From an uncultured Bacilli bacterium (GTDB lineage: Bacteria; Bacillota_I; Bacilli_A; RF39; UBA660): 64,000 bases of DNA. A model generated the notes under the pieces. That model saw only the letters and a list, made by a program, of their open reading frames with translations, was not told where the DNA came from and did no database searches. Numbering within the stretch: position 1 is the first letter of the stretch; every line of letters begins with the position of its first letter. Position numbers and translations under genes: made by a program. Of the stretch, positions 3,565 through 30,109 are shown piece by piece. The stretch is taken from positions 77,564-141,563 of the forward strand of contig CALVOZ010000004.1 in the NCBI GenBank assembly GCA_944350495.1. The letters are read 5' to 3'.

Positions 3565-4554
3565 TTATATCCATACACCAAATAAAATTCCTGACATACT
3601 TAGGATTAAACCAATTACCCAAAAGAATTTTACAATGTCACGTTCATCCCAACCTTTTTTCTCTAAATGGTGATGATATGGTGTCATTAAAAATACTTTC
3701 TTATGTAGATATATCATACTAAATATTTGAATTAAACAAACTAATGTTTCAAAAACAAAAACACCAGCTACCACAATCATAGTTATTTCATGTTGAGTAA
3801 TAATAGCAACACTAGCTAACGCAGCCCCTAAAGCAAGAGAACCAGTATCACCCATAAACACTTTAGCAGGATGAGTATTATAAACTAAAAATCCTAAAAG
3901 GGAACCAACTAAAATGAAACAGAATATTGCAATATCTTCATGTCCAGCAATACCAATACTTCCCCAACTTATTAAACCAAATGCTAAGAAAGCCATTACC
4001 GATAAACCACCAGCTAAACCATCCAATCCATCAGTGATATTAACAGCATTACTACTAGCAACTAAAACAAATAATAGGAAGATTCCATATAACCACCCCA
4101 TATCAATTTTAATACCTAGAGTATGAATATCTAATACTGGGTCTGCTCCACCTTTCATAAATATATAAAAGAAAATAAGAGCAATTGCTATTTGACCGAC
4201 CAATTTTTGAAATTCTGTTAAGCCGATATTATTATTACGTTTTATAATTAAGAAATCATCAATAAATCCTAATAAAGCGTAAGCTATAAAGACAAATATA
4301 ACAATTAATAAATTCTCAGAAAATTCAATTTTACCCATTATTAATAGAATAAAAATAGTTATTAAAGTAGGTAGAATAAAGATAATTCCTCCCATTGTTG
4401 GTGTTCCATCTTTATCTTTATGTTTTTTTTCTAAATAAGTACTAACTCTTTGTTGAGCTATTTTTTTTAATAAAGGAATTGCTACAAGTCCAAATACAAC
4501 AGCAATAATAAATCCTATCATCATTGCTAAAACTGCTTTTGCAAGTATAAGCAT
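3565..4554 (-). CDS. mraY: Phospho-N-acetylmuramoyl-pentapeptide transferase
   Basis: 329 aa polytopic membrane protein. N-terminal MLILAKAVLAMMIGFIIA..., with the DDFLIIKRNNNIGL and MGDTGSLALG motifs typical of MraY. Confidence 0.93.
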   Translation of the reverse strand: MLILAKAVLAMMIGFIIAVVFGLVAIPLLKKIAQQRVSTYLEKKHKDKDGTPTMGGIIFILPTLITIFILLIMGKIEFSENLLIVIFVFIAYALLGFIDDFLIIKRNNNIGLTEFQKLVGQIAIALIFFYIFMKGGADPVLDIHTLGIKIDMGWLYGIFLLFVLVASSNAVNITDGLDGLAGGLSVMAFLAFGLISWGSIGIAGHEDIAIFCFILVGSLLGFLVYNTHPAKVFMGDTGSLALGAALASVAIITQHEITMIVVAGVFVFETLVCLIQIFSMIYLHKKVFLMTPYHHHLEKKGWDERDIVKFFWVIGLILSMSGILFGVWI

Positions 4555-4565
4555 TTTATCATCTC

Positions 4566-5900
4566 CTAAATATTGTCTAATACAATTTGTTTATCATCAA
4601 AAAATATTTTCATATCTTTAATAATTTGATATTTTTCATGTCCCTTTCCAAGCAATATAAGTATATCATTTTTTCCCAGTAATTGTATACCTTTTTTAAT
4701 AGCATTCTCCCTATTTGACTCAATTTCATAATTATTTTTGTCAAGATTACAAACAATATCATTAATTATTTTATCAGGGTCTTCGCTTCGGGGATTATCA
4801 CTAGTAAAAATTACATAATCAGAATTATTAACGGCAATTTTACCCATTAGTGGTCTTTTAGTTTTATCTCTATCGCCACCACAACCAATTACGGTAATCA
4901 TTTTATTAAAATTTAATTCTTTAAGACAATTTAAAATATTAAAAACAGCATCAGGAGTATGTGCATAATCTACTACTGCATATTTATTATTCTTAGTTAT
5001 AATATCCATTCTACCCTCAGGCGATTTACACTTTTTTATTATCTTATATAATTCCTGATAATTATAACCTAGTTGATAAAAAAGGCAAATTGCAGCCGTC
5101 ATATTATAAATATTATATTTTCCCTTTAATTGCATCTCATAAACTTCATCATTAACTTTAAAGTCTTTATCATCACTAATTTGATAATCGCTATTGCTAT
5201 AACCATATGTTAAATAATTTTTAATTTCAAAATATTTAACGTATAAGTCATCATTGTTAATTAAACTTACTCCACTACTTTTAAGTAGATGAAAAAGTCT
5301 CTGTTTTGCTATGATATAGTTTTCCATACTCTTATGATAATCTAAATGATCTTGGGTTAAATTAGTAAATATTGCATAATCATAACTAATAAAATCAACC
5401 CTATTTTGTGCTAAAGCCTGACTGCTTACTTCCATAACAACATATTCATATTTTTGATTATATGCTTCGTTAATTAAATTAAATAATTCGATTGAGCCAG
5501 GTGTTGTATTATTTAAATCTTTTATCTTTTTATCTAAGTAAAATCCTAACGTTCCAATATAAGCACACTTTACCCCTAATTTATTAAATATTTGCCAAAT
5601 TAAATAACAAGTCGTAGTTTTTCCATTGGTTCCAGTTACACCTATAATTTTTATATTAGGCATATTTTCTTTTAAATATTTTATTAAATATTCTTTAGTT
5701 GATGCAACTCTTATAGTCTCTACTTCATAGTTACCATATTCACAAATTATTCTTTTAGCGCCTTTTGCGATAGCATCTTCAATATATTGATGGCCATCAT
5801 TTAACTCCCCTTTAATTGCAATAAACGTATCACCTTCAGCAATTAATCGTGAATCACATTTAAGCACATTAAACACCTCAATATATTTTATGTTTAACAT
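4566..5900 (-). CDS. murE: UDP-MurNAc-L-Ala-D-Glu:diamino-acid ligase, MurE type with DNPR motif
   Basis: 444 aa. Mur-ligase P-loop GVTGTNGKTTT, MurE-type DYAHTPDA motif, and FTSDNPRSEDP (DNPR motif). It is immediately upstream of mraY, as in dcw (division/cell-wall) clusters. Confidence 0.85.
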   Translation of the reverse strand: MLNIKYIEVFNVLKCDSRLIAEGDTFIAIKGELNDGHQYIEDAIAKGAKRIICEYGNYEVETIRVASTKEYLIKYLKENMPNIKIIGVTGTNGKTTTCYLIWQIFNKLGVKCAYIGTLGFYLDKKIKDLNNTTPGSIELFNLINEAYNQKYEYVVMEVSSQALAQNRVDFISYDYAIFTNLTQDHLDYHKSMENYIIAKQRLFHLLKSSGVSLINNDDLYVKYFEIKNYLTYGYSNSDYQISDDKDFKVNDEVYEMQLKGKYNIYNMTAAICLFYQLGYNYQELYKIIKKCKSPEGRMDIITKNNKYAVVDYAHTPDAVFNILNCLKELNFNKMITVIGCGGDRDKTKRPLMGKIAVNNSDYVIFTSDNPRSEDPDKIINDIVCNLDKNNYEIESNRENAIKKGIQLLGKNDILILLGKGHEKYQIIKDMKIFFDDKQIVLDNI

Positions 5901-5961
5901 TTATTATTGACTATCATGAATTTATTATTTATAATAACAAATCAATTAGGGGGCATATATT

Positions 5962-7017
5962 ATGAGCAAATGGCATTTTAATAAATCATTAATAGAAGAA
6001 GCAATCAATACAGGGCAAAGTTTTTTATTATCTCCTAACCTTTCTAAACAAGATAGACTTGAAATCACCAGTGATATAAAAAGATTTAAATTATTTTTAG
6101 ATGGAAATTTTGATAACTATATTCGAAGAAGAAGGCAAAATATGCCTTACCTAAAAAATAATATTATAAGCGGAATGAAAAACTTAGAAAAAATATTGAG
6201 CCCTAGATTAAGAAGATGGCTAATTGATTTGGCGCAAGATCAAATCTTTACCATTGACTCAGAAACACCAATATTTACAATGTCTTTAGACGAGGCTGCT
6301 AAAACTACTTTAAAAAACTATAAAATGAATGCCCCAGCTATGTATAACTTTGCTAAAACAATACTAGAACCAAAACAAGGAATTATTCAAGAAGCGGTTC
6401 TAAATACATCGTCATATTGCTTTTATAGCGATATCTTACAATTACCATTTATTGTCGTTGATCCTTTAGATGATGCTGGTTGTCTAAATCATGAATTAGA
6501 ACACGGTATTGAATATTTAATGGGAACTAGACCACATTTTTTTTATAGTGAATTTGGACCAATTTTTTTTGAATTATTATTTTGTGATGAATCATATAAA
6601 AAATATGGTAAATCATCTTTGGCTATGCATATTACCCGTATAAAGGAAACTGAGGATTATTTAAATGTCCTTGCAGTATATTTTTGTGCGATGAAAATTT
6701 TTTCTCTTCGCAATTATGATGTGTCAGAGCAATTCTTTTTAGAAACTTTCGAATATTTCTCTAATGTAGAAAATGATAATTTAATAGATTTTCTAAATGA
6801 TGAATTTGTTAATTCACAAATAATAGAAAGTATAACTTATGTATTATCATTCTTAAAGGCTATTCAAGTTAGAGAGCTAGCTAATAATGGTGGTAATCAA
6901 TCTGGCGCATCCTTCAACGATATTGTATTTTCAAAAAAATTTAAATTTAAAATTCCTGATTCTAATTATCAATTATATGAAAAATATATAGAAGAAATCA
7001 AACAAAAAATGAGATAA
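5962..7017 (+). CDS. Hypothetical HExxH zinc-metallopeptidase-like protein
   Basis: 351 aa. Single HExxH motif in LNHELEHGIEYLMG; no signal peptide or TM evident. Plus-strand gene wedged between the two murE paralogs, with terminator 7006-7032. Confidence 0.5.
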   Translation: MSKWHFNKSLIEEAINTGQSFLLSPNLSKQDRLEITSDIKRFKLFLDGNFDNYIRRRRQNMPYLKNNIISGMKNLEKILSPRLRRWLIDLAQDQIFTIDSETPIFTMSLDEAAKTTLKNYKMNAPAMYNFAKTILEPKQGIIQEAVLNTSSYCFYSDILQLPFIVVDPLDDAGCLNHELEHGIEYLMGTRPHFFYSEFGPIFFELLFCDESYKKYGKSSLAMHITRIKETEDYLNVLAVYFCAMKIFSLRNYDVSEQFFLETFEYFSNVENDNLIDFLNDEFVNSQIIESITYVLSFLKAIQVRELANNGGNQSGASFNDIVFSKKFKFKIPDSNYQLYEKYIEEIKQKMR

Positions 7018-7032
7018 AAATCTCATTTTTTA
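7006..7032. terminator. Bidirectional hairpin terminator between the HExxH gene and the murE paralog
   Basis: aaaatgagat-aaaaa-tctcatttt followed by a T-run. It overlaps the plus-gene stop (7015-7017) and abuts the minus-gene stop at 7030. Confidence 0.55.
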
Positions 7033-8397
7033 ATTACTTACTTTGACTTGATTATTAATTATTTTTAGTACTTCTTCTCGGTCATTAAAAGCTATTCTAT
7101 TTTGACCAACTATAATCGCATTTTCATGTCCTTTTCCTAATATTAATAATATATCATTACGTTCTAGTTTAGAAATAGCTGCTGCAATAGCTTTACCTCG
7201 ATCTTTTTCAACTAAGTAATGGTCTTGGGTATTTCCCTCTAACATATCAGTAACAATATCTTCAAATTCTTCTTCATGTAAATCATCACTAGTTACAAAA
7301 ACATAATTTGAATTATCTAAAGCCATTTGCATCATTATCGGTCTCTTTACTCGATCTCTACTTCCAGTGCAACCAAACACGGTATAAATGTTATGATGTT
7401 TTATTTCCTTAACAGTATTAATAATATTCATCATCGCATCAGGAGTATGTGCATAATCAATTACAATCATATTACTATTATAATTTATGATATCCATTCT
7501 TCCCGGTGGTGGTAATATCCTTGAAATGACATACTCAATATCTTCCTTATTATATTTAAGCAAATCTAAAGTAATAACAGCACAAGCCATATTATATATA
7601 TTATACTTACCAATTAACCTTGATGATATTTTATAATCATTTAAAGTAAAATAACTGCCATTTGAAGTCAACTTTAAATCTTTAATTTGATAGTCACTAT
7701 TTTGAAAGCCATATGTTAAATAATTATCTATTTTATAATAATTGCAATAGTCATCATCAATATTAATAACACGGTGTCCACCTGTCTTTAATTGTTTAAA
7801 TAATTGAACTTTCGCCATTGCATATTTTTCCATTGTCTTATGATAATCTAAATGATCTTGAGTTAAATTAGTAAAAATAGCAATATCAAACGGAATTTTA
7901 TTTAATCTTCCATATGATAAGCCTTGACTACTAGCTTCCATGACAATATTTTTACAACCATTATAATATGCTTCAACAATCATATCATAAATATCACAAA
8001 TATCAGGACTAGTATTAGGCAAATCGCATACCTTTTTATCCATATAAAAACCAATTGTTCCAATATACGCGCATTTAGAACCAATTAAATTTAAAGCCTC
8101 ATAAATAAGATAGCAACTAGTTGTCTTACCATTAGTTCCCGTAATACCTATAATATTCATTTCATTTAAGATATCTTTATATGTATCATATAACAAATTT
8201 TCTAAATAAACTCTAGTATCATCAACAATAACAGTCTCAACACTATAGTTACCTTCCTCTGCCACAATCTTAACTGCTCCTGCCGCAATAGCTGATTCTA
8301 TATATGAATGTCCATCACTATTAATCCCTCTTAGAGCAACAAAAGTGTCACCTGGTTTTACTTTTCTAGAATTTGTTTTAATTTTAATCATATTCAC
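7030..8397 (-). CDS. MurE-like Mur ligase paralog lacking the DNPR motif
   Basis: 455 aa. GITGTNGKTTS P-loop and DYAHTPDA (MurE-type, not the MurF DDSYNANP motif). The position of DNPR reads VTSDDLHEEEF. The N-terminal DSR-like substrate region NSRKVKPGDTFVALRG...DGH is conserved. Confidence 0.75.
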   Translation of the reverse strand: MNMIKIKTNSRKVKPGDTFVALRGINSDGHSYIESAIAAGAVKIVAEEGNYSVETVIVDDTRVYLENLLYDTYKDILNEMNIIGITGTNGKTTSCYLIYEALNLIGSKCAYIGTIGFYMDKKVCDLPNTSPDICDIYDMIVEAYYNGCKNIVMEASSQGLSYGRLNKIPFDIAIFTNLTQDHLDYHKTMEKYAMAKVQLFKQLKTGGHRVINIDDDYCNYYKIDNYLTYGFQNSDYQIKDLKLTSNGSYFTLNDYKISSRLIGKYNIYNMACAVITLDLLKYNKEDIEYVISRILPPPGRMDIINYNSNMIVIDYAHTPDAMMNIINTVKEIKHHNIYTVFGCTGSRDRVKRPIMMQMALDNSNYVFVTSDDLHEEEFEDIVTDMLEGNTQDHYLVEKDRGKAIAAAISKLERNDILLILGKGHENAIIVGQNRIAFNDREEVLKIINNQVKVSN

Positions 8398-8406
8398 ACG
8401 TCCTTC

Positions 8407-9183
8407 TTATTGTTGAGTTGCTTGTATAGTTTCATCTATAATAGGATCTTCTAATTCCTCATTTTGTGCCACATTTATTAATTCATAATCATTGTAATTC
8501 TTATCATAAGAAGATATATTATTAATATTTGTATAGTTAATGTTAATTTTAAACTGACTAATTTGTATATTTTTTGTCAATAAGAATTCAGTTAAATCAA
8601 CTTCTATATTATAAATTAAATAATCTTTTTCTTTAGCAATCAATTTTATAGCATACTCTTCAGTTGGTTCATATATATAAGTAACCGTTTTATTACCATC
8701 GTTATATTCAATAGATTCATCAACGACCGCTTCTTTTAGCCAATTATAAATAGCTTCACTTTCTATTTCAGTAATTGTTATTGGTAAATTTATAACTGGA
8801 TCGGCAATTAATTGTTTATTTTCATCATCAACCATATAAATAGTGCCATCATCATAATAAGTATTGTTATCAATTGTGTAATATTTATTATCTTCAAATG
8901 CTAAACCTTTCATTACTATATTTTCATTATTATAGATAATATTATATTCATATTCGTAACTTTGCATATTTCCATAATTATCTATTGAATTAGAAGTTAC
9001 CTTCACCTTATCGCTATCACTACTATAGTTTGGTGTATAGCTAGGACTAAATATCCCTGAAATTGCCACTATATATAGTATGAAGAAAAACAAAAACCAG
9101 CAAAGCAATTGGTATAAAGCCTTATTTCGTGGATTTTTTTTCCATTTTTTAAAAGCTTGATATTTCTCTTTCATTTTAATCAC
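8407..9183 (-). CDS. Membrane-anchored hypothetical protein (N-terminal TM, Asn/Tyr-rich extracytoplasmic domain)
   Basis: 258 aa. LLCWFLFFFILYIVAISGIF TM after a basic N-terminus. Its start overlaps the end of fmt by 8 nt and its stop is 10 nt from the murE2 start, so it is in an operon with fmt and murE2. Confidence 0.5.
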   Translation of the reverse strand: MIKMKEKYQAFKKWKKNPRNKALYQLLCWFLFFFILYIVAISGIFSPSYTPNYSSDSDKVKVTSNSIDNYGNMQSYEYEYNIIYNNENIVMKGLAFEDNKYYTIDNNTYYDDGTIYMVDDENKQLIADPVINLPITITEIESEAIYNWLKEAVVDESIEYNDGNKTVTYIYEPTEEYAIKLIAKEKDYLIYNIEVDLTEFLLTKNIQISQFKININYTNINNISSYDKNYNDYELINVAQNEELEDPIIDETIQATQQ

Positions 9184-10132
9184 CTAACTTTTTCCCAATT
9201 AATTCTTCTTTTTTTACCCCGTTTAAATAATCTTTTGCATTCATTCTCTTTTTACCTTCAGGTTGAATTACCGTTAAGATTATCTCTAAATCTTTAGTTT
9301 GAATATGAATACCTAAGTTAGAAGTATTTGTAATAGTTCCTGGTTCTTTATTAGTACTTTTATCACCAATAATAGATTCCCATACTTTTAATCTTTTACC
9401 ATTTAACATTGTATAAGCTACTGGCCAACTATTTAATCCCCTAATTTGATTATACACGGATTTTGCATCTTTATTAAAATCGACAAGTTCATCTTCTGGT
9501 TTTATGTTGTATGAATAAGTTGCTTCATTTTCATTTTGTTTAACAGGATTAATGTTATTAGATAAAATATCTGGTAAAGTTTTCACTAAAAGTTCAGCGC
9601 CTAAATTAGATAGTTTATTGAATAAACTTTCAGCTGTATCTACATCTAAAATTGGAATACTTTCTTGCGTAATTATATCACCATTATCCATTCCATAATC
9701 CATATGCATAATCGTAACTCCCGATTCAGTATCGCCTTCAATGATTGCTCGATGTATTGGTGCACCACCACGATGTTTAGGTAACAATGAAGCATGAACA
9801 TTTATACACTTATATTTTGGATAGTCAATTATTTCTTTTGGAATAATTTGACCATAGGCACAAGTAATAATAATATCTGGCTCATAAGCTAAAATACTCT
9901 GGTAATCTGCACGTATTTTTACTGGTTGCAATACAGGAATATTATGAGCAAGTGCTAAATCCTTAACTGGTGTCGTTTTAATTTTACCTTCTCTACCAAC
10001 TTGTTTATCTGGTTGAGTTACAACTGCTACAACATTATAATTTTTTATTAATGCTTCTAGAACAGGAACACTAAAATCAGGAGTTCCCATAAATACTATT
10101 TTAATATTATTCATTAAATCACCTATTAACAT
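9176..10132 (-). CDS. fmt: Methionyl-tRNA formyltransferase
   Basis: 318 aa. KIVFMGTPDFSVPVLEAL...VVTQPDK, with the HASLLP and formyltransferase C-terminal domain. Confidence 0.92.
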   Translation of the reverse strand: MLIGDLMNNIKIVFMGTPDFSVPVLEALIKNYNVVAVVTQPDKQVGREGKIKTTPVKDLALAHNIPVLQPVKIRADYQSILAYEPDIIITCAYGQIIPKEIIDYPKYKCINVHASLLPKHRGGAPIHRAIIEGDTESGVTIMHMDYGMDNGDIITQESIPILDVDTAESLFNKLSNLGAELLVKTLPDILSNNINPVKQNENEATYSYNIKPEDELVDFNKDAKSVYNQIRGLNSWPVAYTMLNGKRLKVWESIIGDKSTNKEPGTITNTSNLGIHIQTKDLEIILTVIQPEGKKRMNAKDYLNGVKKEELIGKKLGD

Positions 10133-10180: not shown

Positions 10181-10210
10181 TATAAAGAAAAAAAGTGAGG
10201 CATTCTCACT
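10181..10210 (-). terminator. Terminator after nrdG
   Basis: agtgag-gcatt-ctcact hairpin directly after the nrdG stop (10211-10213), with a T-run on the minus transcript. Confidence 0.6.
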
Positions 10211-10771
10211 TTAAATATACACTTTTTTACTATATCTTCCAAAATTCGATTCTTGTTCTTCCTCATCTAATTGAGCTAAAACAACGCTACCATCTTCAAG
10301 ACTTCTTTTTACATCAATAATTCTTTGATTAGTTGAGCCTCTAAATCTAGCACTATAACTTTTTTTAGCAATTATAAATGGTCCATCTACTAAAATATCA
10401 ATTTCTTTTAGAAAATCCATAATTTCCTTTTTTTTAGTTGATGCTTTAAGTAAATCTTCATATAAAAATCCTGTATAACACCATACATTCATTCCCAACT
10501 TATGCACATATTTAGCTAATTCTGCGCATGATGCAGGTTGAAAAAATGGGTCACCCCCACTAAATGTAACACCATCTTGAAATTCTAGTTCTGATAAAGC
10601 CGTTTTAACATCTTCTAATTCGACCTCATCACCACCATTAAAATCGTGGGTCCCAGGATTATGACAACCTGGACAGTTGTGTGAACAACCTTGTGTCCAC
10701 ACAACAGCCCTAATGCCTAATCCATCTACAATGCTATCAGTTTGAATCCCGCTAGCTAATCTAATTTTCAT
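10211..10771 (-). CDS. nrdG: Anaerobic ribonucleotide reductase activating protein (radical SAM)
   Basis: 186 aa. CSHNCPGC (CxxxCxxC) near the N-terminus. Its ATG overlaps the stop of the upstream 58-aa ORF by 1 nt. Confidence 0.9.
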   Translation of the reverse strand: MKIRLASGIQTDSIVDGLGIRAVVWTQGCSHNCPGCHNPGTHDFNGGDEVELEDVKTALSELEFQDGVTFSGGDPFFQPASCAELAKYVHKLGMNVWCYTGFLYEDLLKASTKKKEIMDFLKEIDILVDGPFIIAKKSYSARFRGSTNQRIIDVKRSLEDGSVVLAQLDEEEQESNFGRYSKKVYI

Positions 10772-10947
10772 TATGCTTTTTGTTGTGCTTTAGAACAAGC
10801 CATTACTTCTTTAATACCAGTATGCTTAACCCTGTCTTTTTCTTCAGCTCTCTTACCGTTATTAAATCTTTTAACGTCTCCTGAAAGATATCCTGTAACT
10901 CTTCTAATTCTTTCGAATCCTACACCTTCACCAACAGTTTTTTCCAT
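10771..10947 (-). CDS. Stand-alone NrdD glycyl-radical domain (58 aa)
   Basis: ATG at 10945-10947, preceded by AGGAGGAA (10954-10961) that overlaps the nrdD TAG stop. Translation is MEKTVGEGVGFERIRRVTGYLSGDVKRFNNGKRAEEKDRVKHTG... The RRVTGYL motif is the class III RNR glycyl-radical signature (cf. RVCGY). It is in the same frame as nrdD but separated by two stops (TAG, TAA). Confidence 0.6.
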   Translation of the reverse strand: MEKTVGEGVGFERIRRVTGYLSGDVKRFNNGKRAEEKDRVKHTGIKEVMACSKAQQKA

Positions 10948-10959
10948 ATTTTATTCCTC

Positions 10960-13266
10960 CTAATTACAATTAAAATTTTTTATTTCTTCTAGTGGTACTG
11001 CATCAAATTCTTTACGACCACATCCTGGACATACATCCTCAATTACTCCAACATATCCACAAACTGGATCTCTATCAACTGGGTGGTTAATAGCACCATA
11101 ACCAATACCAGATTCTTTCATAAGTCTAATAATGCTTTCAAAAGCATCAACATTTTGAACTGTATCACCATCTAACTCAATATATGAGATATGGCCACCA
11201 TTTGTTAAATTATGATATGGAGCCTCTTTCTCAATTTTATCTTTAATATTAATTTTATAATATACTGGTATGTGAAATGAGTTAGTATAATAATTTTTAT
11301 CTGTAACACCTTTAATTTTGCCATAAATTGCTTTATCAATATTAACAAACCTACCAGATAATCCTTCAGCTGGAGTAGCAATTAAAGTAAAGTTTAAATT
11401 GTATTCTTTACAGAATTCATTACATTTATTTCTCATAAACTGAATTATTTCTAATCCTAATTTTTGAGCTTTTTCAGATTCACCATGATGTTCACCAATT
11501 AAAGATTTTAAAGTTTCCGCTAAACCGATAAAACCAATTGTTAAAGTACCATGTTTTAATATCTTACGTAATCTATCAGTTGGTTTTAACTTATCACCAT
11601 CTGTCCATACTCCTTGAGCAAGTAAGAATGGAAAATTATAAACTCTTTTATTACATTGAACTTCAAATCTTTCTAGTAATTGATCTCTAACAAGTTCCAT
11701 TCTCTCACCTAATTCAGCGTAGAATCCTTCCATATCTGGTTTTTTTCTAGTATTTTGACAAATACCATGTTTAATACCAATACGAGGTAAATTAATACTT
11801 GTAAACGATAAATTACCACGACCACCTGTTGTTTGATTATTTAAATCAGTAACATCAGCCATAACTCTTGTACGACATCCCATATAACCAACTTCAGTAC
11901 GAACATCGCCTTCTTTATAATACTCTAAATTAAATGGAGCATCCAAGAAAGAGAAATTAGGGAATAATCGTTTAGAAGATACTTTACATGCTAATCTAAA
12001 CAAATCATAGTTCTTATCTTCTTTATTATAGTTAACGCCTTCTTTTACCTTAAAGATTGAAACTGGGAAAATTGGAGTTTCACCTTTTCCTAATCCAGCT
12101 TCAGTAGCTAAAAGATAATTTTTAATAACCATTCTACCTTCTGGCGTAGTATCAGTACCAAAATTAATAGATGAGAATGGTACTTGAGCACCAGCCCTAG
12201 AATGCATTGTATTTAAATTATGAATAAAAGCTTCCATAGCTTGATATGTCTCACGATCAGTTTTCTGAATAGCCTTATCATATGCTTTTTCAAAGTTTCT
12301 TTTCATTAATTCTGAATCTTTATAAATACCTTCAAAAATATTTATATCAAATTCAATACTATCTAACTTATCAATTTCTTTTTCAATACGATCCATATTT
12401 ATAAATGGAAGCATATCTTGGAAATCTAATACATCATAAATTTGTTGTTTAAATTGTTTTTTAAACGTACATAACACACCTGGTGCCATATAGAAATCAA
12501 AAGCTGGTATTGATTGTCCACCATGTTGATCATTTTGATTTGACTGAATTGCAATAGCTGCAAGTGCACTATAAGAAATAATACTCTTTGGAGGTCTTAA
12601 ATGACCATGTCCAGTTGAAAAACCTTTCTTAAATAATCTATCCAATTCAATTTGCATGCAAGTTGTTGTACCCATTGCTAAAAAGTCCATATCATGAATA
12701 TGAATATATCCATCATCATGAGCATCTGCAAATTTTTTCTTCATTAAATATGTTTTAGCAAACTCTTTGGAAATTGTACTTCCGTATTGAAGCATAGTTC
12801 CCATAGCACTATCACCATCAATATTAGCATTTTCACGTTTAGTATCATCTTCGTTAGCGCTCTTAAGTCCTAATCCTTCAATAGTTTTTAAAAACTTATG
12901 TTTTCTTTTATCATCAAAGAATAATTCACGTGATTGTGCTCTTCTTTCACGATAATCAGCAAATGATTTCCTTACATCTTCGTATCCTTGCTTGCTTAAT
13001 TCAAATTCAATTAAATCTTGAATTTCTTCAATTTTAATTTTATCTTTATCAGCGTATTCTTTTTCAATTCTTTTTAAAACACAATTATAAACTTTATTAA
13101 CGTCTTTTTCTGTGTATGTTCTTTTTTCTTCATCAACTTCGTTTAAAACGACGATATTTTCAAATCCTTTTTTAATAGCTACTGCGATCTTTGAACCATC
13201 AAAATCAACTTTTTTGCCATTTCGTTTAACTACTGCAATAGATAGTTTGTTTTTTAAATCTGCCAT
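10960..13266 (-). CDS. nrdD: Anaerobic ribonucleoside-triphosphate reductase (class III) large chain, ending after the Zn-ribbon and lacking its own glycyl-radical domain
   Basis: 768 aa. N-terminal ATP-cone (VVKRNGKKVDFDGSKIAVAIKK), class III core, and C-terminal PVCGYVGVIEDVCPGCG Zn site followed by a stop. RBS AGGAGAT upstream. Confidence 0.92.
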   Translation of the reverse strand: MADLKNKLSIAVVKRNGKKVDFDGSKIAVAIKKGFENIVVLNEVDEEKRTYTEKDVNKVYNCVLKRIEKEYADKDKIKIEEIQDLIEFELSKQGYEDVRKSFADYRERRAQSRELFFDDKRKHKFLKTIEGLGLKSANEDDTKRENANIDGDSAMGTMLQYGSTISKEFAKTYLMKKKFADAHDDGYIHIHDMDFLAMGTTTCMQIELDRLFKKGFSTGHGHLRPPKSIISYSALAAIAIQSNQNDQHGGQSIPAFDFYMAPGVLCTFKKQFKQQIYDVLDFQDMLPFINMDRIEKEIDKLDSIEFDINIFEGIYKDSELMKRNFEKAYDKAIQKTDRETYQAMEAFIHNLNTMHSRAGAQVPFSSINFGTDTTPEGRMVIKNYLLATEAGLGKGETPIFPVSIFKVKEGVNYNKEDKNYDLFRLACKVSSKRLFPNFSFLDAPFNLEYYKEGDVRTEVGYMGCRTRVMADVTDLNNQTTGGRGNLSFTSINLPRIGIKHGICQNTRKKPDMEGFYAELGERMELVRDQLLERFEVQCNKRVYNFPFLLAQGVWTDGDKLKPTDRLRKILKHGTLTIGFIGLAETLKSLIGEHHGESEKAQKLGLEIIQFMRNKCNEFCKEYNLNFTLIATPAEGLSGRFVNIDKAIYGKIKGVTDKNYYTNSFHIPVYYKINIKDKIEKEAPYHNLTNGGHISYIELDGDTVQNVDAFESIIRLMKESGIGYGAINHPVDRDPVCGYVGVIEDVCPGCGRKEFDAVPLEEIKNFNCN

Positions 13267-15190: not shown

Positions 15191-15964
15191 TTAATAAACT
15201 CTAGTTATTTTTCCACTACCGACTGTCTTTCCGCCTTCTCTTATTGAAATTTCCATGCCCTTTTCCATAGCAACTGAAGTTTCTAGATTAATCATAACTT
15301 TAGCAGATTCGCCAGGGTTAACACTATCAACACCATCAAGTAAAGTTGTTTTTCCCTTTATTCCAATAGTTTCAAAATAGAACTCAGGTTGATATTCATT
15401 ATATATTGGAGTTTTTCTCCCTCCAACATCACTCGTGTACAATGTTATTTCTGCTTCAAATTTTTTAGAAGAAATAATTGAATTTGGTTGTGCTAAAACT
15501 TGTCCTCGTTGAACTTGATTTCTTTCTACATCTTTTAAAATCAGTCCAACTTCATCTCCCATTATAGCATAATCATTTTCTGAGCGAAATTTATCAATAC
15601 TTATAACAGTTGTCGTTATTATTTTTTGATCTAAACCAATTATTTGAACTGTATCACCAATATTTATTTTCCCTCTTACAACTGTACCAGTTACAACTGT
15701 ACCACGATCTGTAATTGTAAATACATCTTCAATTGGAAAAAGAAAAGCACCATTTTCATCATATGTTAAATTAACATTTTTATCAAGTTTTCCATTTATA
15801 GTTTCGTCATAAGAATAATTGTCATCAACATTATTATTCTCATTTACTTTCTTACTATCTTCTTTTGTACCACAGCCAATTAAAACAAACACACATAATA
15901 ATGAAACGGTTAACATCAACATTTTGTGTGCAAATACAAATTTCTTTTGATTATAATTTTTCAC
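15191..15964 (-). CDS. Lipoprotein consisting of EF-Tu domain II and domain III
   Basis: 257 aa, GTG start with RBS AAAGGAG overlapping the upstream stop. Signal peptide with lipobox LIGC (MLMLTVSLLCVFVLIGCG). The mature part aligns with EF-Tu domain II (FLFPIEDVFTITDRGTVVTGTVVRGKINIGDTVQIIG...RGQVLAQP) and domain III (KFEAEITLYTSDVGGRKTPIYNEYQPEFYFET...REGGKTVGSGKITRV). Confidence 0.7.
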   Translation of the reverse strand: MKNYNQKKFVFAHKMLMLTVSLLCVFVLIGCGTKEDSKKVNENNNVDDNYSYDETINGKLDKNVNLTYDENGAFLFPIEDVFTITDRGTVVTGTVVRGKINIGDTVQIIGLDQKIITTTVISIDKFRSENDYAIMGDEVGLILKDVERNQVQRGQVLAQPNSIISSKKFEAEITLYTSDVGGRKTPIYNEYQPEFYFETIGIKGKTTLLDGVDSVNPGESAKVMINLETSVAMEKGMEISIREGGKTVGSGKITRVY

Positions 15965-15977
15965 AATAAATACTCCT

Positions 15978-16958
15978 TTAATCTAAAATTTCATCGACAA
16001 ATCCAACAGCTACAATACGTTCTCCCTCGCAAAGTTGAACTTTCATTCCTTTATTTACTTCTACACTGCTATCAAGATGTATATTTATGTCTACATCATT
16101 CCCCGGTGCAACTAATTCAATATTATCTATTAATTCAACTTTACCTTGAACACTATCTTTACCTATTTTTATAGTTGGTTGATAATTATTGAAAAATGGA
16201 GTATGACGCCCTCCTTCATCAGCTGTTAAAGCATAAATATGTGCTTTAAATTTTTTTGTTGGAACTTTTTCTTCATTTTGTGATAATGGTTCTAACCACT
16301 CGTCAGTTTCTTTCATCAACTGTTCAATGCTTTGTTCAGCTTCTTTATCACCTTCAATAGCTTTAAGTGCTGAACCTCTAACTATTGGTGTATTAGAACC
16401 ATCAAAGCCATATTCGTTCAATAAATCACGTATATCATATTCAATTTGATCTAATACTTTATCATCTTTAACTAAATCACATTTGTTGATATAAACTACA
16501 ATTTTGGGAACTCCAATTTGACTTATCAACTTCACTTGTTCATAAGTTTCAGGCATTAATCCTTCTGTAGCAGACACAACCAATATAGCGCCATCTAATT
16601 TAATATCCCCTGAAATAATGCCTTTTATATAATCTTCATTACTAGGCATATCAAAATGAATGTATTTTTTTGATTTTGTCACATATTCTGTTTTGAAATA
16701 ATTATAAACTACACCATCAGCTTCAGTTGATATAACTGAACTATCAATTTCATTGGTACTTACATAATCTCCATACATTTTTGTTATTGCGGATGTCAAA
16801 GTTGTCTTACCATGATCTTCATTTCCAATAACTGCAATGGTTACATTATCGTTATTTTTTTTATTATCCTTATTATTAAATATAACAAATGCTAGTGCTG
16901 ATAAAATCACTGCTAACGATATACCAATTATAATAAATTTATTTTTATTATTATTCAT
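15978..16958 (-). CDS. Signal-anchored degenerate EF-Tu G-domain plus domain III; domain II absent
   Basis: 326 aa. N-terminal MNNNKNKF plus TM (IIIGISLAVILSALAFVIF). G1 GNEDHGKTTL, G4 NKCD and G5 GSAL are conserved. G3 DCPGH is replaced by DMPSN. The protein then runs directly into EF-Tu domain III (KFKAHIYALTADEGGRHTPFFNNYQPTIKIG...). Confidence 0.7.
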   Translation of the reverse strand: MNNNKNKFIIIGISLAVILSALAFVIFNNKDNKKNNDNVTIAVIGNEDHGKTTLTSAITKMYGDYVSTNEIDSSVISTEADGVVYNYFKTEYVTKSKKYIHFDMPSNEDYIKGIISGDIKLDGAILVVSATEGLMPETYEQVKLISQIGVPKIVVYINKCDLVKDDKVLDQIEYDIRDLLNEYGFDGSNTPIVRGSALKAIEGDKEAEQSIEQLMKETDEWLEPLSQNEEKVPTKKFKAHIYALTADEGGRHTPFFNNYQPTIKIGKDSVQGKVELIDNIELVAPGNDVDINIHLDSSVEVNKGMKVQLCEGERIVAVGFVDEILD

Positions 16959-17965: not shown

Positions 17966-17984
17966 TTTATCCTCCTTTTAATCT

Positions 17985-18065
17985 AAGACTCGCCATTTAA
18001 GGTAACTCACGTTTTAAAACCTTCTCAGTGCGGTTGTAGAATGAGGCTCTACACAGTATTAAATT
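17985..18065 (-). promoter_or_regulatory. Putative rplU 5' leader (L21-leader-like structured element)
   Basis: GC-enriched patch (gcggttgtagaatgaggctctacac...) in an otherwise AT-rich intergenic region, just upstream of the rplU RBS AAAGGAGGAT. The position matches the Firmicute L21 leader. Structure not verified. Confidence 0.35.
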
Positions 18066-19287: not shown

Positions 19288-20037
19288 CTAAATATTTAAT
19301 CTTGTCAAATTTAGCCTTGTTTTTAAAAAGATTCTCTCTGATATTAAGTTATTATTAATAAAAAAATAGTGTTTTACACTACGCTTCATTTTCTTTATTG
19401 ACTGATTATAAATGATAATTGAACAATAATATGGATATTCTTTATTACTTCTCTCATATAAAAATTTATAAAAATAATTGTATCTATCCTTATATATAGT
19501 AATACTTGTAGTGAGTAAATAAATAGAAAATAACAAAATTATTAAATTATGATAATAAATATTAATTATAAATATTGATATATAAGAAATTATAAATGTT
19601 ACGATGTAACTATAATAATAACTGCCTATTATATTCCAAAATAAAAAAATAAATTTAGAACCATCTAGAGGGTAAATCGGTAAAAGGTTAAATATTAATA
19701 AGGGATAATTATAATTAGATTTAAAAAATATATTTAGGATAATTTGAAATAATGGTCCCATTAGCAAAATAATTAATTCTTGATATATCGGCCTATTTAG
19801 TTCCTCCCTAAACTCTGTCATACACCCTAATGGTAATATAATAACTCGGTTTATATTCCACTTAAATATTATAGCGGCTAAAATATGACCTAATTCATGA
19901 AATAAAATAATTATCATAAATTCGGTAAATACTTTCATATTACCAGTCAGTATCATTACCATAGCCACTATATATAATAAAGGATGAAAATATAATTTAT
20001 GGTAAATATTTTTCATACGGAATAACTCCACCATCAT
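19288..20037 (-). CDS. M50 site-2 protease (SpoIVFB-like)
   Basis: 249 aa polytopic. HELGH plus LLPIYPLDGS (LDG motif). It overlaps the upstream degenerate-LytM gene by 41 nt. Confidence 0.65.
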   Translation of the reverse strand: MMVELFRMKNIYHKLYFHPLLYIVAMVMILTGNMKVFTEFMIIILFHELGHILAAIIFKWNINRVIILPLGCMTEFREELNRPIYQELIILLMGPLFQIILNIFFKSNYNYPLLIFNLLPIYPLDGSKFIFLFWNIIGSYYYSYIVTFIISYISIFIINIYYHNLIILLFSIYLLTTSITIYKDRYNYFYKFLYERSNKEYPYYCSIIIYNQSIKKMKRSVKHYFFINNNLISERIFLKTRLNLTRLNI

Positions 20038-20533
20038 CCTTATATACTAAATATAAATTATTAGATGCACTACCAAGTAAACTACCACTTTCAACGTAGT
20101 CATATAATTTAACATTAACTGTATCTAAATTACCATACCAACAATCAACACCATCTTCTTGTTCAATTACAACTACTTTACCATAATTATCTTTATTTCC
20201 AATATATACAACTAAACCACTATTAATAATAGGAACTAAATAATTTTCTTCAATACTTAACTTTGCACCATCATAATATGGTTCTAAGGAATTATAATTT
20301 AGAGTTTCTTTAAACACTGGTTCGGTCATAATTATTTTATCAAAGGGAATAGAACCACCAAAATATTTATTATATAAACTGTTTATATAAGCAAAATCGA
20401 AATTATTTTCATATACTATTTCATAAAACTTATTTTTAAAATTAACATCTTTTTTTATATTTATTAAAATTATCAAACTTATTAAAATTGTCGTTATTAA
20501 TCTAAACAGAAACTTTATAATATCTATCACCAA
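19997..20533 (-). CDS. Membrane-anchored degenerate M23/LytM-domain protein (SpoIVFA-like)
   Basis: 178 aa. N-terminal TM, then C-terminal GLVVYIGNKDNYGKVVVIEQEDGVDCWYGNLDTVNVKLYDYVESGSLLG, which resembles an M23 fold without the HxH zinc ligands. Confidence 0.5.
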   Translation of the reverse strand: MVIDIIKFLFRLITTILISLIILINIKKDVNFKNKFYEIVYENNFDFAYINSLYNKYFGGSIPFDKIIMTEPVFKETLNYNSLEPYYDGAKLSIEENYLVPIINSGLVVYIGNKDNYGKVVVIEQEDGVDCWYGNLDTVNVKLYDYVESGSLLGSASNNLYLVYKDDGGVIPYEKYLP

Positions 20534-21678: not shown

Positions 21679-21705
21679 TTCTAAAAAACAAATAACACTT
21701 CATAA

Positions 21706-22036: not shown

Positions 22037-22037
22037 G

Positions 22038-26427: not shown

Positions 26428-27912
26428 TTATAATACTAATGTAAATAATGTACCATTACCTTTATTAACTAATTTACCTAATGTTTGCTGTAATTTAAAT
26501 CTCGCTCCTTCTGGTAAGAGAGCTAATTTAGCTTGAATTCCTTCCTTGACCATTTCATCTAAACCTCGACCAAATATTTCACTTTTCCAAATATTATCTT
26601 TATCTTTCATTAAATAATCAATTAATTCTTTACTTTGAACCTCAGAACCAATTATTGGTTCAAAAGTAGATTCAACATCAACCTTAATCATATGAATAGA
26701 AGGTGCTACAGCTTTTAATCTAATTCCATATCTATTACCTTGTTTTATAACTTCAGGAGTTTCTAATTTCATATCATTAATAGTTGGACTAGCAACACCA
26801 TAACCTGTACTTTTAACCATAGCTAGAGCAGATTTTATTTGATCATATTCTGTTTTTGCTTCTTTATATGACTCAAATAAAGAAATAATATCTGCCCTAC
26901 TATTTACATCAACCCCAACAATCTCTTTTAAAACTTGATTATATAGTTCATCGGGTGCATGTAAATTAATAGTAACAACACCAGTAGAAGTATTGACATT
27001 TGAAATATATGATTTATCAATATATTCACAAGAAGTAAAATGATTAGTAATTGTATCAATATCTCTTAATTTATCAATATCAACAACACTTTCTTTAATT
27101 TTATCAATGTATATTTTCTTTAACCAATTATCAGGTTTTAGAGAAGCAATCCAATCAGGCATATTAACCTCTACTTCTAAGACAGGAAATTCATATAAAG
27201 ATTCTCTTAATATGCTATAAACATCTTTCTCAGTTAAATTCTCAATACTAACAGGAATGACTGGTACATTATAACTCTCACGCATCTTATCAGCTAGATT
27301 AATCGTATCTGGTAACATTGGATGAGCAGAATTTAATAATACTATGAAAGGTTTACCAATGCTTTTTAACTCACTAATAACTCTTTCTTCAGCTTCCATA
27401 TAACTATCTCTCGCAATTTCGCCAAACGAAGCGTCAGTAGTTACAACAATACCAATACTAGAATGATCTTTAATAACTTTTTCGGTTCCTATTTCAGCTG
27501 CCTCAATAAACGGTATTTCTTCATCATACCAAGGAGTTTTAACCATTCTAGGTCCATTCTCATCTTCGTAACCTTTAGACCCTTCAATGACATAACCAAC
27601 ACAATCTACAAGCCTAACATTAGCTGTAAAACCATCTATTTTTATGTTGGCACCATTACTAGGAACAAATTTAGGCTCAGTTGTCATAATTGTTTTACCT
27701 TGAGCTGATTGTGGTATCTCATCTAAACATCTTTTTCTTTCATACTCATCTTCAATATTAGGCACCACTAAATTTTCAATAAACTTTTTAATAAAAGTAC
27801 TCTTACCAGTTCTAACGGCTCCTACTACTCCAAGATATAAATCTCCACCGGTTCTTTCCGTAATACTTTTAATAATATCTACTTTTTCCATATATGACCT
27901 ACTTTCTTTCAT
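26428..27912 (-). CDS. spoIVA: Stage IV sporulation protein A (spore coat basement-layer ATPase)
   Basis: MEKVDIIKSITERTGGDLYLGVVGAVRTGKSTFIKKF... is near-identical to the B. subtilis SpoIVA N-terminus, including Walker A. The true start is probably the internal Met at 27889-27891; the ORF track adds 7 codons. Confidence 0.92.
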   Translation of the reverse strand: MKESRSYMEKVDIIKSITERTGGDLYLGVVGAVRTGKSTFIKKFIENLVVPNIEDEYERKRCLDEIPQSAQGKTIMTTEPKFVPSNGANIKIDGFTANVRLVDCVGYVIEGSKGYEDENGPRMVKTPWYDEEIPFIEAAEIGTEKVIKDHSSIGIVVTTDASFGEIARDSYMEAEERVISELKSIGKPFIVLLNSAHPMLPDTINLADKMRESYNVPVIPVSIENLTEKDVYSILRESLYEFPVLEVEVNMPDWIASLKPDNWLKKIYIDKIKESVVDIDKLRDIDTITNHFTSCEYIDKSYISNVNTSTGVVTINLHAPDELYNQVLKEIVGVDVNSRADIISLFESYKEAKTEYDQIKSALAMVKSTGYGVASPTINDMKLETPEVIKQGNRYGIRLKAVAPSIHMIKVDVESTFEPIIGSEVQSKELIDYLMKDKDNIWKSEIFGRGLDEMVKEGIQAKLALLPEGARFKLQQTLGKLVNKGNGTLFTLVL

Positions 27913-30091: not shown

Positions 30092-30109
30092 AATCTCTCT
30101 CCTTAATTA

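What the first reader, a model, noticed from the sequence alone, without database searches (positions are those of the whole stretch)
4566..8397. Two MurE-type ligases, one lacking the DNPR specificity motif, flanking a divergently oriented HExxH metallopeptidase-like gene
Both paralogs carry the MurE-type DYAHTPDA motif (not MurF DDSYNANP, nor MurC/D DDSKxTN).
- The copy next to mraY has DNPR, the hallmark of diamino-acid recognition.
- The second copy has DDLH at that position. It heads an operon with a membrane-anchored Asn/Tyr-rich protein and fmt.

A plus-strand protein with a lone HELEH motif sits between them. A MurE-like enzyme with an altered specificity pocket suggests addition of a non-canonical residue. 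One example would be the diamino acid attached to the D-Glu alpha-carboxyl in B-type peptidoglycan, as reported for Erysipelotrichaceae. Another would be an alternative stem-peptide position-3 residue.
Basis: partly seen in the sequence, partly recalled or inferred. Interest (0 to 1): 0.55.

Follow-up and report, generated by a model that had tools for sequence, protein, structure and literature searches.

The report
Paired MurE ligases in a spore-former
An uncultured spore-forming gut bacterium keeps two copies of the enzyme that adds the third amino acid of the cell-wall peptide; one is standard (diaminopimelate type) and the other has a rebuilt amino-acid pocket, probably so that the growing cell and the spore get chemically different walls.

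Summary
Two intact MurE paralogs (49% identical) flank a plus-strand HExxH gene. One has DNPR and sits next to mraY; the other has DDLH.

DDLH is not a one-off. 119 of the 120 closest database homologs carry DDLH or DDPH. In 19 of 23 related loci from uncultured low-GC gut Bacilli, the gene lies directly upstream of a DNPR copy and mraY.

The two copies come out as sister clades inside MurE (moderate support) and are far from MurF and MurD. Nearly all systematic differences lie in the amino-acid pocket: N414D, R416H, P415L, P420F, G386T, Q471I. The catalytic residues and the domains that bind the acceptor are kept. The variant therefore most likely adds a non-DAP residue, plausibly Lys or Orn-like, to the same UDP-MurNAc-dipeptide.

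The lineage carries sporulation genes: SpoIVA, and a SpoIVFA/FB-like pair in Bacillus-like synteny. The DNPR copy alone is preceded by a conserved sigma-K-type promoter motif.

Best reading: the variant ligase serves the vegetative wall and the DAP ligase serves the spore cortex, as in Bacillus sphaericus.

The HExxH gene is a shortened PepF-like peptidase, a lineage-specific insertion with no evident link to the ligases. The B-type (alpha-carboxyl) idea is not supported. The substrate is unknown.

The parts
7030..8397 (-). murE2: a MurE-type ligase with DDLH in place of DNPR. The likely start is the ATG at 8391. It is the last gene of the fmt operon.
   Evidence: Sequence and family assignment. 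Of the 120 closest homologs, 119 have DDLH or DDPH. Specificity-determining positions. Trees.
4566..5900 (-). murE1: a canonical DNPR (mDAP-type) MurE, immediately upstream of mraY. The likely true start is the GTG at 5867 (433 aa).
   Evidence: Start-site evidence. Orthologs in L001-L022.
5874..5892 (-). Conserved element upstream of murE1. It comprises a sigma-K/sigma-E-type -10 box (CATAAAATA, 5884-5892), 4 nt, and the ribosome-binding site GAGGTG (5874-5879). In most relatives a CAC lies 16 nt upstream as the -35 element. In this window the -35 is degenerate.
   Evidence: The strict pattern was found at 14 of 356 ORFs, and all 14 are murE1. The B. subtilis consensus KCACM / GCATANNNTA is tabulated in PMC3416734.
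5962..7017 (+). HExxH gene, 351 aa. It is a shortened oligoendopeptidase-F-like (M3B-like) gluzincin with no signal peptide. It is a lineage-specific insertion between the two murE genes.
   Evidence: No Pfam or NCBIfam hit. Only 14 homologs exist. H177, E178, H181, E197 and E204 are invariant. The AF2 model has pLDDT 92.7. The best Foldseek hit is PepF 2h1n, E 1.8e-5. The gene is absent from between the ligases in L001-L020.
3565..4554 (-). mraY, downstream of murE1
   Evidence: TIGR00445 scores 286 bits.
8407..9183 (-). Asn/Tyr-rich protein with an N-terminal membrane anchor. It lies between fmt and murE2. Function unknown.
   Evidence: No family hit. Homologs of 27-39% identity occupy the same position in L001, L003-L007 and L020.
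9176..10132 (-). fmt (methionyl-tRNA formyltransferase), the first gene of the fmt-X-murE2 unit. A terminator-like hairpin lies upstream at 10192-10212, after nrdG.
   Evidence: TIGR00460 scores 348 bits. Terminator.
26428..27912 (-). spoIVA. Included as context: it marks the organism as an endospore-former.
   Evidence: TIGR02836 scores 686 bits against a cut-off of 460.
19288..20533 (-). An M23-domain gene followed by an M50 protease gene, SpoIVFA/SpoIVFB-like (the pro-sigma-K processing pair). They lie upstream of the L21 leader, as in B. subtilis.
   Evidence: Pfam M23 and M50 hits. L21 leader at 17976-18045. The synteny with B. subtilis spoIVFA-spoIVFB-rplU is from my own knowledge.

Best explanation
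murE2 encodes an active MurE-type ligase. It arose by duplication of murE in a lineage of uncultured, low-GC, endospore-forming gut Bacilli. [quoted passage not shown] It most likely adds a residue with no distal carboxylate, L-Lys or L-Orn-like; the exact substrate is unknown.

murE2 is transcribed with the housekeeping gene fmt, or from sigma-A-like promoters in relatives, and supplies the vegetative wall. The DNPR paralog murE1, with mraY, carries a conserved sigma-K-type promoter motif and supplies mDAP-containing precursor for the spore cortex. This is the division of labour described biochemically for Bacillus (Lysinibacillus) sphaericus.

**Shown:** paralogy, conservation, the location of the changes, the presence of sporulation genes, and the promoter motif.

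**Inferred:** the substrate, the timing of expression, and the split between wall and cortex.
For: **A conserved orthologous group**
- 119 of the 120 top homologs (57-79% identity) have DDLH or DDPH.
- 19 of 23 MurE2-type loci have a DNPR copy and mraY directly downstream.
- The two paralogs diverge at equal rates between genomes, for example 67/68%, 61/65% and 56/55%.

**Phylogeny**
- NJ trees place the MurE2 and MurE1 clades as sisters inside MurE, far from MurF and MurD.
- Bootstrap support is 63% for the wider MurE2 clade and 74% for MurE1.

**Where the changes lie**
- Of 62 columns that are at least 90% conserved in canonical MurE and MurE1, 56 are kept in MurE2.
- The six that are lost are T158S, G386T, N414D, P415L, R416H and P420F. 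Q471I and D481N also discriminate the two groups. All but T158 lie in domain 3, in or adjacent in sequence to the reported DAP-binding residues.
- N414 and R416 bind the distal carboxylate of mDAP. Lys-adding enzymes lack the Arg and have an acidic pocket (PMC3829189).

**Sporulation context**
- The window encodes SpoIVA at 686 bits and an M23+M50 pair in spoIVFA/FB-like synteny.

**Promoters**
- All 20 murE1 genes matched by the search (window plus 19 of L001-L022) have CATAnnnTA 4-7 nt upstream of the RBS. Most also have AC/CAC 15-17 nt further upstream, usually 16.
- The strict pattern hits 14 of 356 ORFs, and every one is murE1. It matches the B. subtilis sigma-K consensus KCACM/GCATANNNTA (PMC3416734).
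- Crown-group loci place a terminator hairpin between murE2 and this promoter.
- The same motif precedes the DNPR copy in the more distant L082.
- murE2-type genes that start their own transcription unit have sigma-A-like TTGTAA/TTGCAC ... TATAAT boxes.
- C. difficile murE is experimentally transcribed from sigma-K and sigma-A promoters (PMC3789822).

**Diversity of the pocket motif**
- The wider MurE2-like clade varies at the pocket motif: DDVH, DNYY, DCLN, VHLY, DHTY, NHLY, DDPG. The partner copy stays DNPR wherever it was seen: 21 adjacent copies and L082.
- This fits a variable vegetative chemotype paired with a conserved cortex.
Against: - No biochemical or muropeptide data exist, and the organism is uncultured.
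- The -10 box lies only 4-7 nt from the ribosome-binding site. A normal start site would fall at or inside that site, which is unusual for a promoter. The element could be something else.
- mraY is needed in vegetative cells but lies behind the terminator and the sigma-K-type promoter. Read-through or an unseen promoter has to be assumed.
- In this window the -35 element is degenerate.
- C. difficile shows that a sigma-K promoter on murE does not imply sporulation-only use.
- The new pocket residues (L, F, I, T, H) are partly hydrophobic, not simply more acidic, so Lys/Orn is only a guess.
- Some MurE2-type genes stand alone (L017, L021) or sit directly upstream of mraY with no DNPR copy on the contig (L024).
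- The B. sphaericus precedent is cited from memory. I could not retrieve the papers.
Confidence: 0.45

Rival explanations
1. Substrate flexibility or salvage. Both ligases work in growing cells on the same UDP-MurNAc-dipeptide. A reduced, auxotrophic gut bacterium keeps a DAP enzyme and a non-DAP enzyme so it can build wall from whichever diamino acid it can obtain. There is no vegetative/spore division.
For: The evidence on the pocket and the acceptor is the same as for the best explanation. The two genes are tandem and on the same strand, and in deeper-branching relatives they are separated by only 14-60 bp with no terminator (L011-L016). Related gut lineages are described as metabolically reduced (PMC7301438). 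C. difficile uses one murE from both sigma-A and sigma-K promoters.
Against: This does not explain why only the DNPR copy carries the conserved sigma-K-type motif, nor why crown-group genomes insert a terminator between the two genes. A redundancy of this kind would be expected to be patchy, yet the pair is kept across deep divergence with equal constraint on both copies. No Lys or DAP pathway information could be obtained.
Confidence: 0.2
2. MurE2 ligates an amino acid to a different carboxyl group, either the D-Glu alpha-carboxyl or a carboxyl of the position-3 residue. This would create a branch or bridge rather than position 3.
For: The two genes always co-occur, as would be expected for sequential steps. 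The lineage is labelled as near Erysipelotrichaceae/Mollicutes in some records. Mur-type ligases can activate the D-Glu alpha-carboxyl, as MurT does (PMC6085368, listed). Some MurE2-like relatives have even lost the first Asp of the motif (VHLY, NHLY, TQPF), so a non-diamino substrate is possible.
Against: There are no discriminating columns in domain 1, and only two mild ones in domain 2 (V162C, A187G). T158S is conservative. A different acceptor carboxyl should reshape the acceptor site. To my knowledge no B-type chemotype uses mDAP. L024 has a MurE2-type gene directly upstream of mraY with no DNPR copy on that contig.
Confidence: 0.1
3. MurE2 has left stem-peptide position 3 altogether. For example, it could replace MurF by adding D-Ala-D-Ala to the tripeptide, or serve another polymer.
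For: No murF lies in the 64-kb window or in the flanks of the related loci L001-L025. Whether murF exists in these genomes could not be tested.
Against: The MurF model scores only 143 bits against a cut-off of 289, while the MurE models pass. In the tree MurE2 is deep inside MurE. Domains 1 and 2 are unchanged. Firmicutes commonly keep murF away from murE-mraY (own knowledge), as in the Bacillaceae and Clostridia loci here. RF39/RFN20-type genomes were reported to have complete peptidoglycan pathways (PMC7301438). In an unrelated lineage a fused double MurE sits next to a separate MurF (L083).
Confidence: 0.04

Closest known systems
Canonical mDAP-adding MurE (E. coli 1E8C; NCBIfam NF001126 / TIGR01085)
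   Same: It has the three-domain Mur ligase architecture, the P-loop GTNGKTT, DHLDYH...AK (the carbamylated Lys), DYAHTPDA, KRP and GKGHE. It passes both HMM cut-offs. murE1 is an ordinary member.
   Different: murE2 lacks N414 and R416 of DNPR and differs at G386, P415, P420 and Q471. Automatic annotation would nevertheless name it a DAP ligase, because it passes NF001126.
L-Lys-adding MurE (S. aureus 4C12, motif DNPA) and T. maritima L/D-Lys MurE (4BUB, motif DDPR)
   Same: The motif Arg is lost (S. aureus) or the Asn is replaced by Asp (T. maritima). The deep-branching MurE2 motif DDPH resembles DDPR and the Lys-type consensus.
   Different: It is not a member of the curated Lys-ligase family: NF010628 scores 257 bits against a cut-off of 536. 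It arose independently from a DNPR-type ancestor. It has His at the Arg position and extra hydrophobic substitutions (L, F, I).
Bacillus (Lysinibacillus) sphaericus: an L-Lys-adding enzyme in vegetative cells and a sporulation-specific mDAP-adding enzyme for the cortex (Tipper, Pratt and Linnett, 1970s; own knowledge)
   Same: An endospore-former with two position-3 ligase activities, one of them DAP-type and linked to sporulation. The Lys-Asp vegetative wall of Lysinibacillus is confirmed in PMC5011910.
   Different: Here the assignment is inferred from sequence and promoter motifs only. The lineage, the gene origin (a local duplication) and the pocket motif differ. The substrate of the variant is unknown.
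C. difficile murE (CD2664), in the sigma-K regulon with sigma-K and sigma-A promoters (PMC3789822)
   Same: A sigma-K-type promoter precedes a DAP-type murE in a spore-former.
   Different: C. difficile has a single murE that serves both walls. Here the sigma-K-type motif marks only one of two paralogs.
Oligoendopeptidase F, MEROPS M3B (for the HExxH gene)
   Same: HExxH plus downstream Glu residues are invariant. The predicted fold matches PepF structures 2h1n and 3sks, with E 1.8e-5 and probability 1.0.
   Different: It is 351 aa against about 565-600. TM-score is only about 0.5 and identity 12%. There is no Pfam hit. Only 14 homologs exist among 5.8 billion proteins.

Membership tests
[quoted passage not shown] | Three Mur-ligase domains, and a MurE subfamily HMM score above the curated cut-off | tested here: met
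   PF01225, PF08245 and PF02875 are all present. TIGR01085 scores 434 bits (cut-off 257) and NF001126 scores 455 bits (cut-off 373).
MurE, for murE2 | Catalytic core: P-loop, Mg/carbamyl-Lys motif, DYAHTPDA, KRP, GKGHE | tested here: met
   56 of 62 core columns are retained. The motifs are visible in the alignments.
mDAP-specific MurE, for murE2 | DNPR motif, with Asn and Arg binding the distal carboxylate of mDAP | tested here: not met
   DDLH is present in its place. D is 100% and H is 99% across 142 clade members, against N and R at 100% in 49 DNPR-type sequences.
L-Lys-adding MurE (NF010628 / PRK14022) | Score above the curated equivalog cut-off | tested here: not met
   257 bits against a cut-off of 536.
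MurF | MurF HMM score above cut-off, and placement in the MurF clade | tested here: not met
   TIGR01143 scores 143 bits against a cut-off of 289. In the tree murE2 lies in MurE, far from E. coli MurF.
MurE enzymatic activity and substrate | [quoted passage not shown] | not testable with these tools
   This needs purified enzyme or muropeptide analysis.
Sigma-K-dependent promoter (upstream of murE1) | -35 KCACM, a spacer of about 16-17 nt, and -10 GCATANNNTA | tested here: inconclusive
   The full motif is present in 14 relatives and only at murE1. In the window only the -10 box CATAAAATA is kept. The box lies 4 nt from the ribosome-binding site. No transcript data exist.
Endospore-former | Core sporulation genes, such as spoIVA and the sigma-K processing pair | tested here: met
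   SpoIVA scores 686 bits. An M23+M50 pair lies upstream of the L21 leader. The rest of the genome was not visible.
M3B oligoendopeptidase F (for the HExxH gene) | A match to the Pfam/MEROPS M3 model, with HExxH and a downstream Glu ligand | tested here: inconclusive
   There is no Pfam hit. The motif residues are invariant. The fold match has E 1.8e-5 and TM 0.51 over a protein 40% shorter.

The most novel reading that the evidence does not exclude
The MurE2-like clade is a diversifying family of position-3 ligases. Its specificity loop has been repeatedly rewritten: DDLH, DDPH, DDVH, DNYY, DCLN, VHLY, DHTY, NHLY. Under this reading, uncultured spore-forming gut Bacilli build vegetative walls with non-canonical and lineage-variable residues, possibly non-diamino acids that imply unusual cross-linking. 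They would keep mDAP only for the cortex. In a gut organism this could also remove the iE-DAP signal sensed by host NOD1 and change sensitivity to phage lysins.
Probability: 0.15. Interest if true: 0.7.

Novelty: new variant of a known kind. Interest (0 to 1): 0.45.

Why it matters
- It defines a conserved, previously undescribed MurE subfamily. Current curated models would mislabel it as a DAP ligase, so peptidoglycan chemotype predictions for a whole group of uncultured gut Bacilli may be wrong.
- It gives a genomic signature for organisms whose vegetative wall and spore cortex differ. The signature is a variable-motif MurE plus a DNPR MurE behind a sigma-K-type promoter. To my knowledge this phenomenon is known only from classical biochemistry in a few Bacillales.
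- If the substrate proves non-canonical, it bears on innate immune sensing (NOD1 versus NOD2), on the specificity of lysins and antibiotics, and on how MurE specificity evolves. Here a handful of pocket substitutions on an otherwise unchanged scaffold appear to do the work.

Tried and rejected
**Explanations tested and set aside**
1. Pseudogene or inactive copy. Rejected: the ORF is intact, 56 of 62 core columns are kept, and it diverges at the same rate as murE1.
2. MurF replacement. Unlikely on HMM scores, the tree and the unchanged domains 1 and 2. Whether murF exists elsewhere in the genome could not be checked.
3. A functional link between the HExxH gene and the ligases. Rejected: the gene is absent from that position in L001-L020. 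It is present only in the window, in L022 (there without murE2 nearby), and probably on one 4871-bp contig.
4. A riboswitch or T-box controlling either ligase. Rfam found none; it reported only RNase P and the L21 leader.

**Methods that gave nothing useful**
5. The generic sigma-70 promoter scan is uninformative in 27% GC DNA: 71 hits against 56 expected.
6. The sigma-K pattern is not enriched in the window as a whole, with 3 hits against 4.7 expected. Its significance rests on positional conservation.
7. A conserved hairpin as an alternative reading of the murE1 upstream element. It is not conserved across loci (inspection).
8. Literature searches for MurE paralogs, B-type peptidoglycan ligases and the B. 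sphaericus enzymes found nothing directly usable. A DOI look-up of Linnett and Tipper 1976 failed.
9. The afdb50 fold library was unavailable.
10. An apparent 'split EF-Tu pseudogene' turned out to be two separate genes.

Full report
**1. Observation**

The region holds, on the minus strand, mraY (3565-4554), murE1 (4566-5900) and murE2 (7030-8397). A 351-aa plus-strand ORF lies between the two ligase genes at 5962-7017.
- Both ligases have the three Mur-ligase Pfam domains.
- Both exceed the curated cut-offs of the MurE models: TIGR01085 at 442 and 434 bits (cut-off 257), and NF001126 at 490 and 455 bits (cut-off 373). Both fall far below the MurF, MurD and MurC cut-offs.
- They are 49% identical over 439 residues.
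- murE1 has TSDNPR. murE2 has TSDDLH at the aligned position, confirmed against the E. coli, T. maritima and other solved MurE sequences.
- The middle ORF carries HELEH.

- murE2 is the last gene of fmt - Asn/Tyr-rich membrane protein - murE2, not the first.
- murE1 probably starts at the GTG at 5867.
- murE2 probably starts at the ATG at 8391.

**2. The DDLH copy belongs to a conserved clade**

The 120 best database homologs of murE2 are 57-79% identical to it, closer than its in-genome paralog. Of these, 119 carry DDLH or DDPH at the motif.

A scan of one genome per species returned loci from MAGs labelled uncultured Bacilli, Mollicutes, Tenericutes or Erysipelotrichaceae, from mouse, rabbit, rumen and digester samples.
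- In 19 of 23 loci with a MurE2-type gene, a DNPR MurE and mraY follow directly on the same strand. Many also have fmt and the Asn/Tyr-rich gene upstream.
- Orthologs of the two paralogs diverge at the same rate between genomes. Both are under similar constraint.
- NJ trees place the MurE2 and MurE1 clades as sister groups nested inside MurE, with single-copy DNPR genes of related Firmicutes just outside. MurF and MurD are far away.
- Bootstrap support is moderate: 63% for the wider MurE2 clade and 74% for MurE1.

The paralog therefore arose by a lineage-specific duplication of murE.

**3. What changed**

I compared 142 MurE2, 21 MurE1 and 28 other DNPR MurE sequences.
- Of 62 columns that are at least 90% conserved in both DNPR groups, 56 are retained in MurE2.
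- The exceptions, in E. coli numbering, are T158S, G386T, N414D, P415L, R416H and P420F. Q471I and D/S481N also discriminate the groups.
- All but T158 lie in the C-terminal domain, in or adjacent in sequence to the reported DAP-binding residues. N414 and R416 bind the distal carboxylate of mDAP. D413 and E468, both kept, bind the distal amino group. Lys-adding S. aureus MurE has DNPA and an acidic pocket (PMC3829189). T. maritima L/D-Lys MurE has DDPR.
- No discriminating column lies in the UDP-binding domain 1. Only two mild ones lie in domain 2.

The simplest reading is the same acceptor and chemistry with a different amino acid, one lacking a distal carboxylate. Deep branches of the clade have DDPH and the crown group has DDLH...F. 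MurE2 does not belong to the curated Lys-ligase family, scoring 257 bits against a cut-off of 536.

**4. Context that explains two ligases**

*Sporulation genes.* The window encodes SpoIVA at 686 bits. An M23-domain gene and an M50 protease gene lie immediately upstream of the L21 leader, the spoIVFA-spoIVFB-rplU arrangement of B. subtilis (synteny from own knowledge). A SpoVE/FtsW-family gene is also present. The clade is therefore a lineage of endospore-formers, or at least carries sporulation genes.

*A promoter motif specific to murE1.* Upstream of murE1, the window and 19 related loci all have CATAnnnTA 4-7 nt before the GAGGTG ribosome-binding site, and most have AC or CAC 15-17 nt further upstream, usually 16.
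- The strict pattern CAC-N16/17-CATAnnnTA occurs near the start of 14 of 356 ORFs in the window plus L001-L022. All 14 are murE1.
- It matches the B. subtilis sigma-K consensus KCACM / GCATANNNTA tabulated in PMC3416734.
- In crown-group loci a terminator hairpin separates murE2 from this element.
- The motif recurs in front of the DNPR copy in a more distant locus, L082, where the MurE2-like gene has DNYY.

*Promoters of murE2.* MurE2-type genes that start their own transcription unit have sigma-A-like -35 and -10 boxes. In the window murE2 rides on the fmt operon.

*Precedent.* In C. difficile, murE is experimentally a sigma-K/sigma-A-transcribed gene (PMC3789822). In Bacillus (Lysinibacillus) sphaericus, classical work found an L-Lys-adding enzyme in vegetative cells and a sporulation-specific mDAP-adding enzyme for the cortex. 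I cite this from memory; the Lys-Asp vegetative wall is confirmed in PMC5011910.

**5. Mechanism proposed**

MurE2 makes a non-DAP tripeptide precursor for the vegetative wall. MurE1, boosted in the mother cell together with mraY, makes the mDAP precursor for the cortex.

Caveats:
- The -10 box is very close to the ribosome-binding site.
- mraY must also be expressed in growing cells.
- The window's own -35 is degenerate.
- A sigma-K promoter does not exclude vegetative use.
- The substrate is not determined. The new pocket residues are partly hydrophobic.

**6. Wider family**

A full HMMER search of 1.84 billion cluster representatives showed that the nearest 50%-identity clusters to MurE2 have a remarkably variable motif: DDVH, DNYY, DCLN, VHLY, DDPG, DHTY, NHLY and DDLY. 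These group with MurE2 in the tree.

Their contexts vary. L082 keeps the MurE2-like ... DNPR-MurE - mraY arrangement. Others stand alone, and one lies next to capsule genes.

A variable vegetative ligase paired with a conserved DNPR ligase fits the known pattern of diverse vegetative chemotypes and a conserved cortex. It also leaves room for truly unusual residues.

**7. The HExxH gene**

- It has no Pfam or NCBIfam hit.
- Only 14 homologs exist among 5.8 billion proteins.
- H177, E178, H181, E197 and E204 are invariant.
- A confident AF2 model (pLDDT 92.7) has solved structures of oligoendopeptidase F as its best matches, at E 1.8e-5 and TM 0.51.

It is a shortened PepF-like gluzincin without a signal peptide. 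It sits between the ligases only here, and probably on one 4.9-kb contig. In L022 it lies divergently upstream of murE1 with no murE2 nearby. In all other relatives the ligases are adjacent. I see no functional link.

**8. Verdict**

- Favoured: an alternative position-3 residue.
- Not supported: the B-type alpha-carboxyl idea.
- Unlikely: a MurF-like role.

This is a new variant within a known enzyme family, with a plausible and testable biological rationale. The interest is moderate. It would rise if the substrate proves non-canonical.

Noticed in passing
window 15191-16958 (-): Two adjacent EF-Tu-derived genes. The first has an N-terminal transmembrane helix, an EF-Tu GTPase domain (GNEDHGKTT) and a domain-III-like part. 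The second has a lipoprotein-type signal (..LIGC) followed by EF-Tu domains II and III. These are membrane-anchored or exported EF-Tu paralogs, not a broken tuf gene.
   Followed up: partly
L083 2369-5308 (protein P0255, 979 aa; 50% GC contig): An independent case of a doubled MurE. A single fused protein has a DNPR MurE half and a DNAE MurE-like half, and the two halves are each other's closest relatives. It lies in a classical ftsI-[murE-murE']-murF-mraY-murD-ftsW-murG cluster.
   Followed up: partly
proteins P0256-P0267; loci L082, L084-L087: MurE2-like cluster representatives have a hypervariable specificity motif (DDVH, DNYY, DCLN, VHLY, DDPG, DHTY, NHLY, TQPF). Their contexts vary. One is next to Wzz/CpsD/CpsB capsule genes (L084). 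One has an Amidoligase_2 gene upstream and two DUF285 genes inserted before the DNPR copy (L082).
   Followed up: partly
window 7030-8397 (-): murE2 passes the curated cut-off of the NCBIfam equivalog for the DAP ligase (NF001126) although it lacks the DAP-binding Asn and Arg. Automatic annotation would probably call both genes DAP ligases.
   Followed up: yes
window 8407-9183 (-): An Asn/Tyr-rich protein with one N-terminal membrane helix and no family assignment. It is conserved in position between fmt and murE2 in the closest relatives, at only 27-39% identity.
   Followed up: no
window 19288-20533 (-), 17976-18045 (-), 21699-22037 (-): An M23 + M50 gene pair (SpoIVFA/FB-like) lies upstream of an L21 leader, and a class B RNase P RNA is nearby. 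The window also holds GpsB (22038-22421), RecU and PBP1A (22631-26003), a PASTA kinase with a PP2C phosphatase (55778-58309), and anaerobic ribonucleotide reductase NrdD/NrdG (10211-13266).
   Followed up: partly
window 27978-28805 (-): A CW_7-repeat + LysM protein lies next to spoIVA. The unassigned ORFs at 29348-30820 have upstream sequence that looks phage- or toxin-like.
   Followed up: no
L049-L078 (Saccharibacteria and other Patescibacteria loci): The MurE homologs of these candidate-phyla genomes also lack DNPR. They carry EESY, EDPY, EEPY, DETY or DDSR at that position.
   Followed up: no
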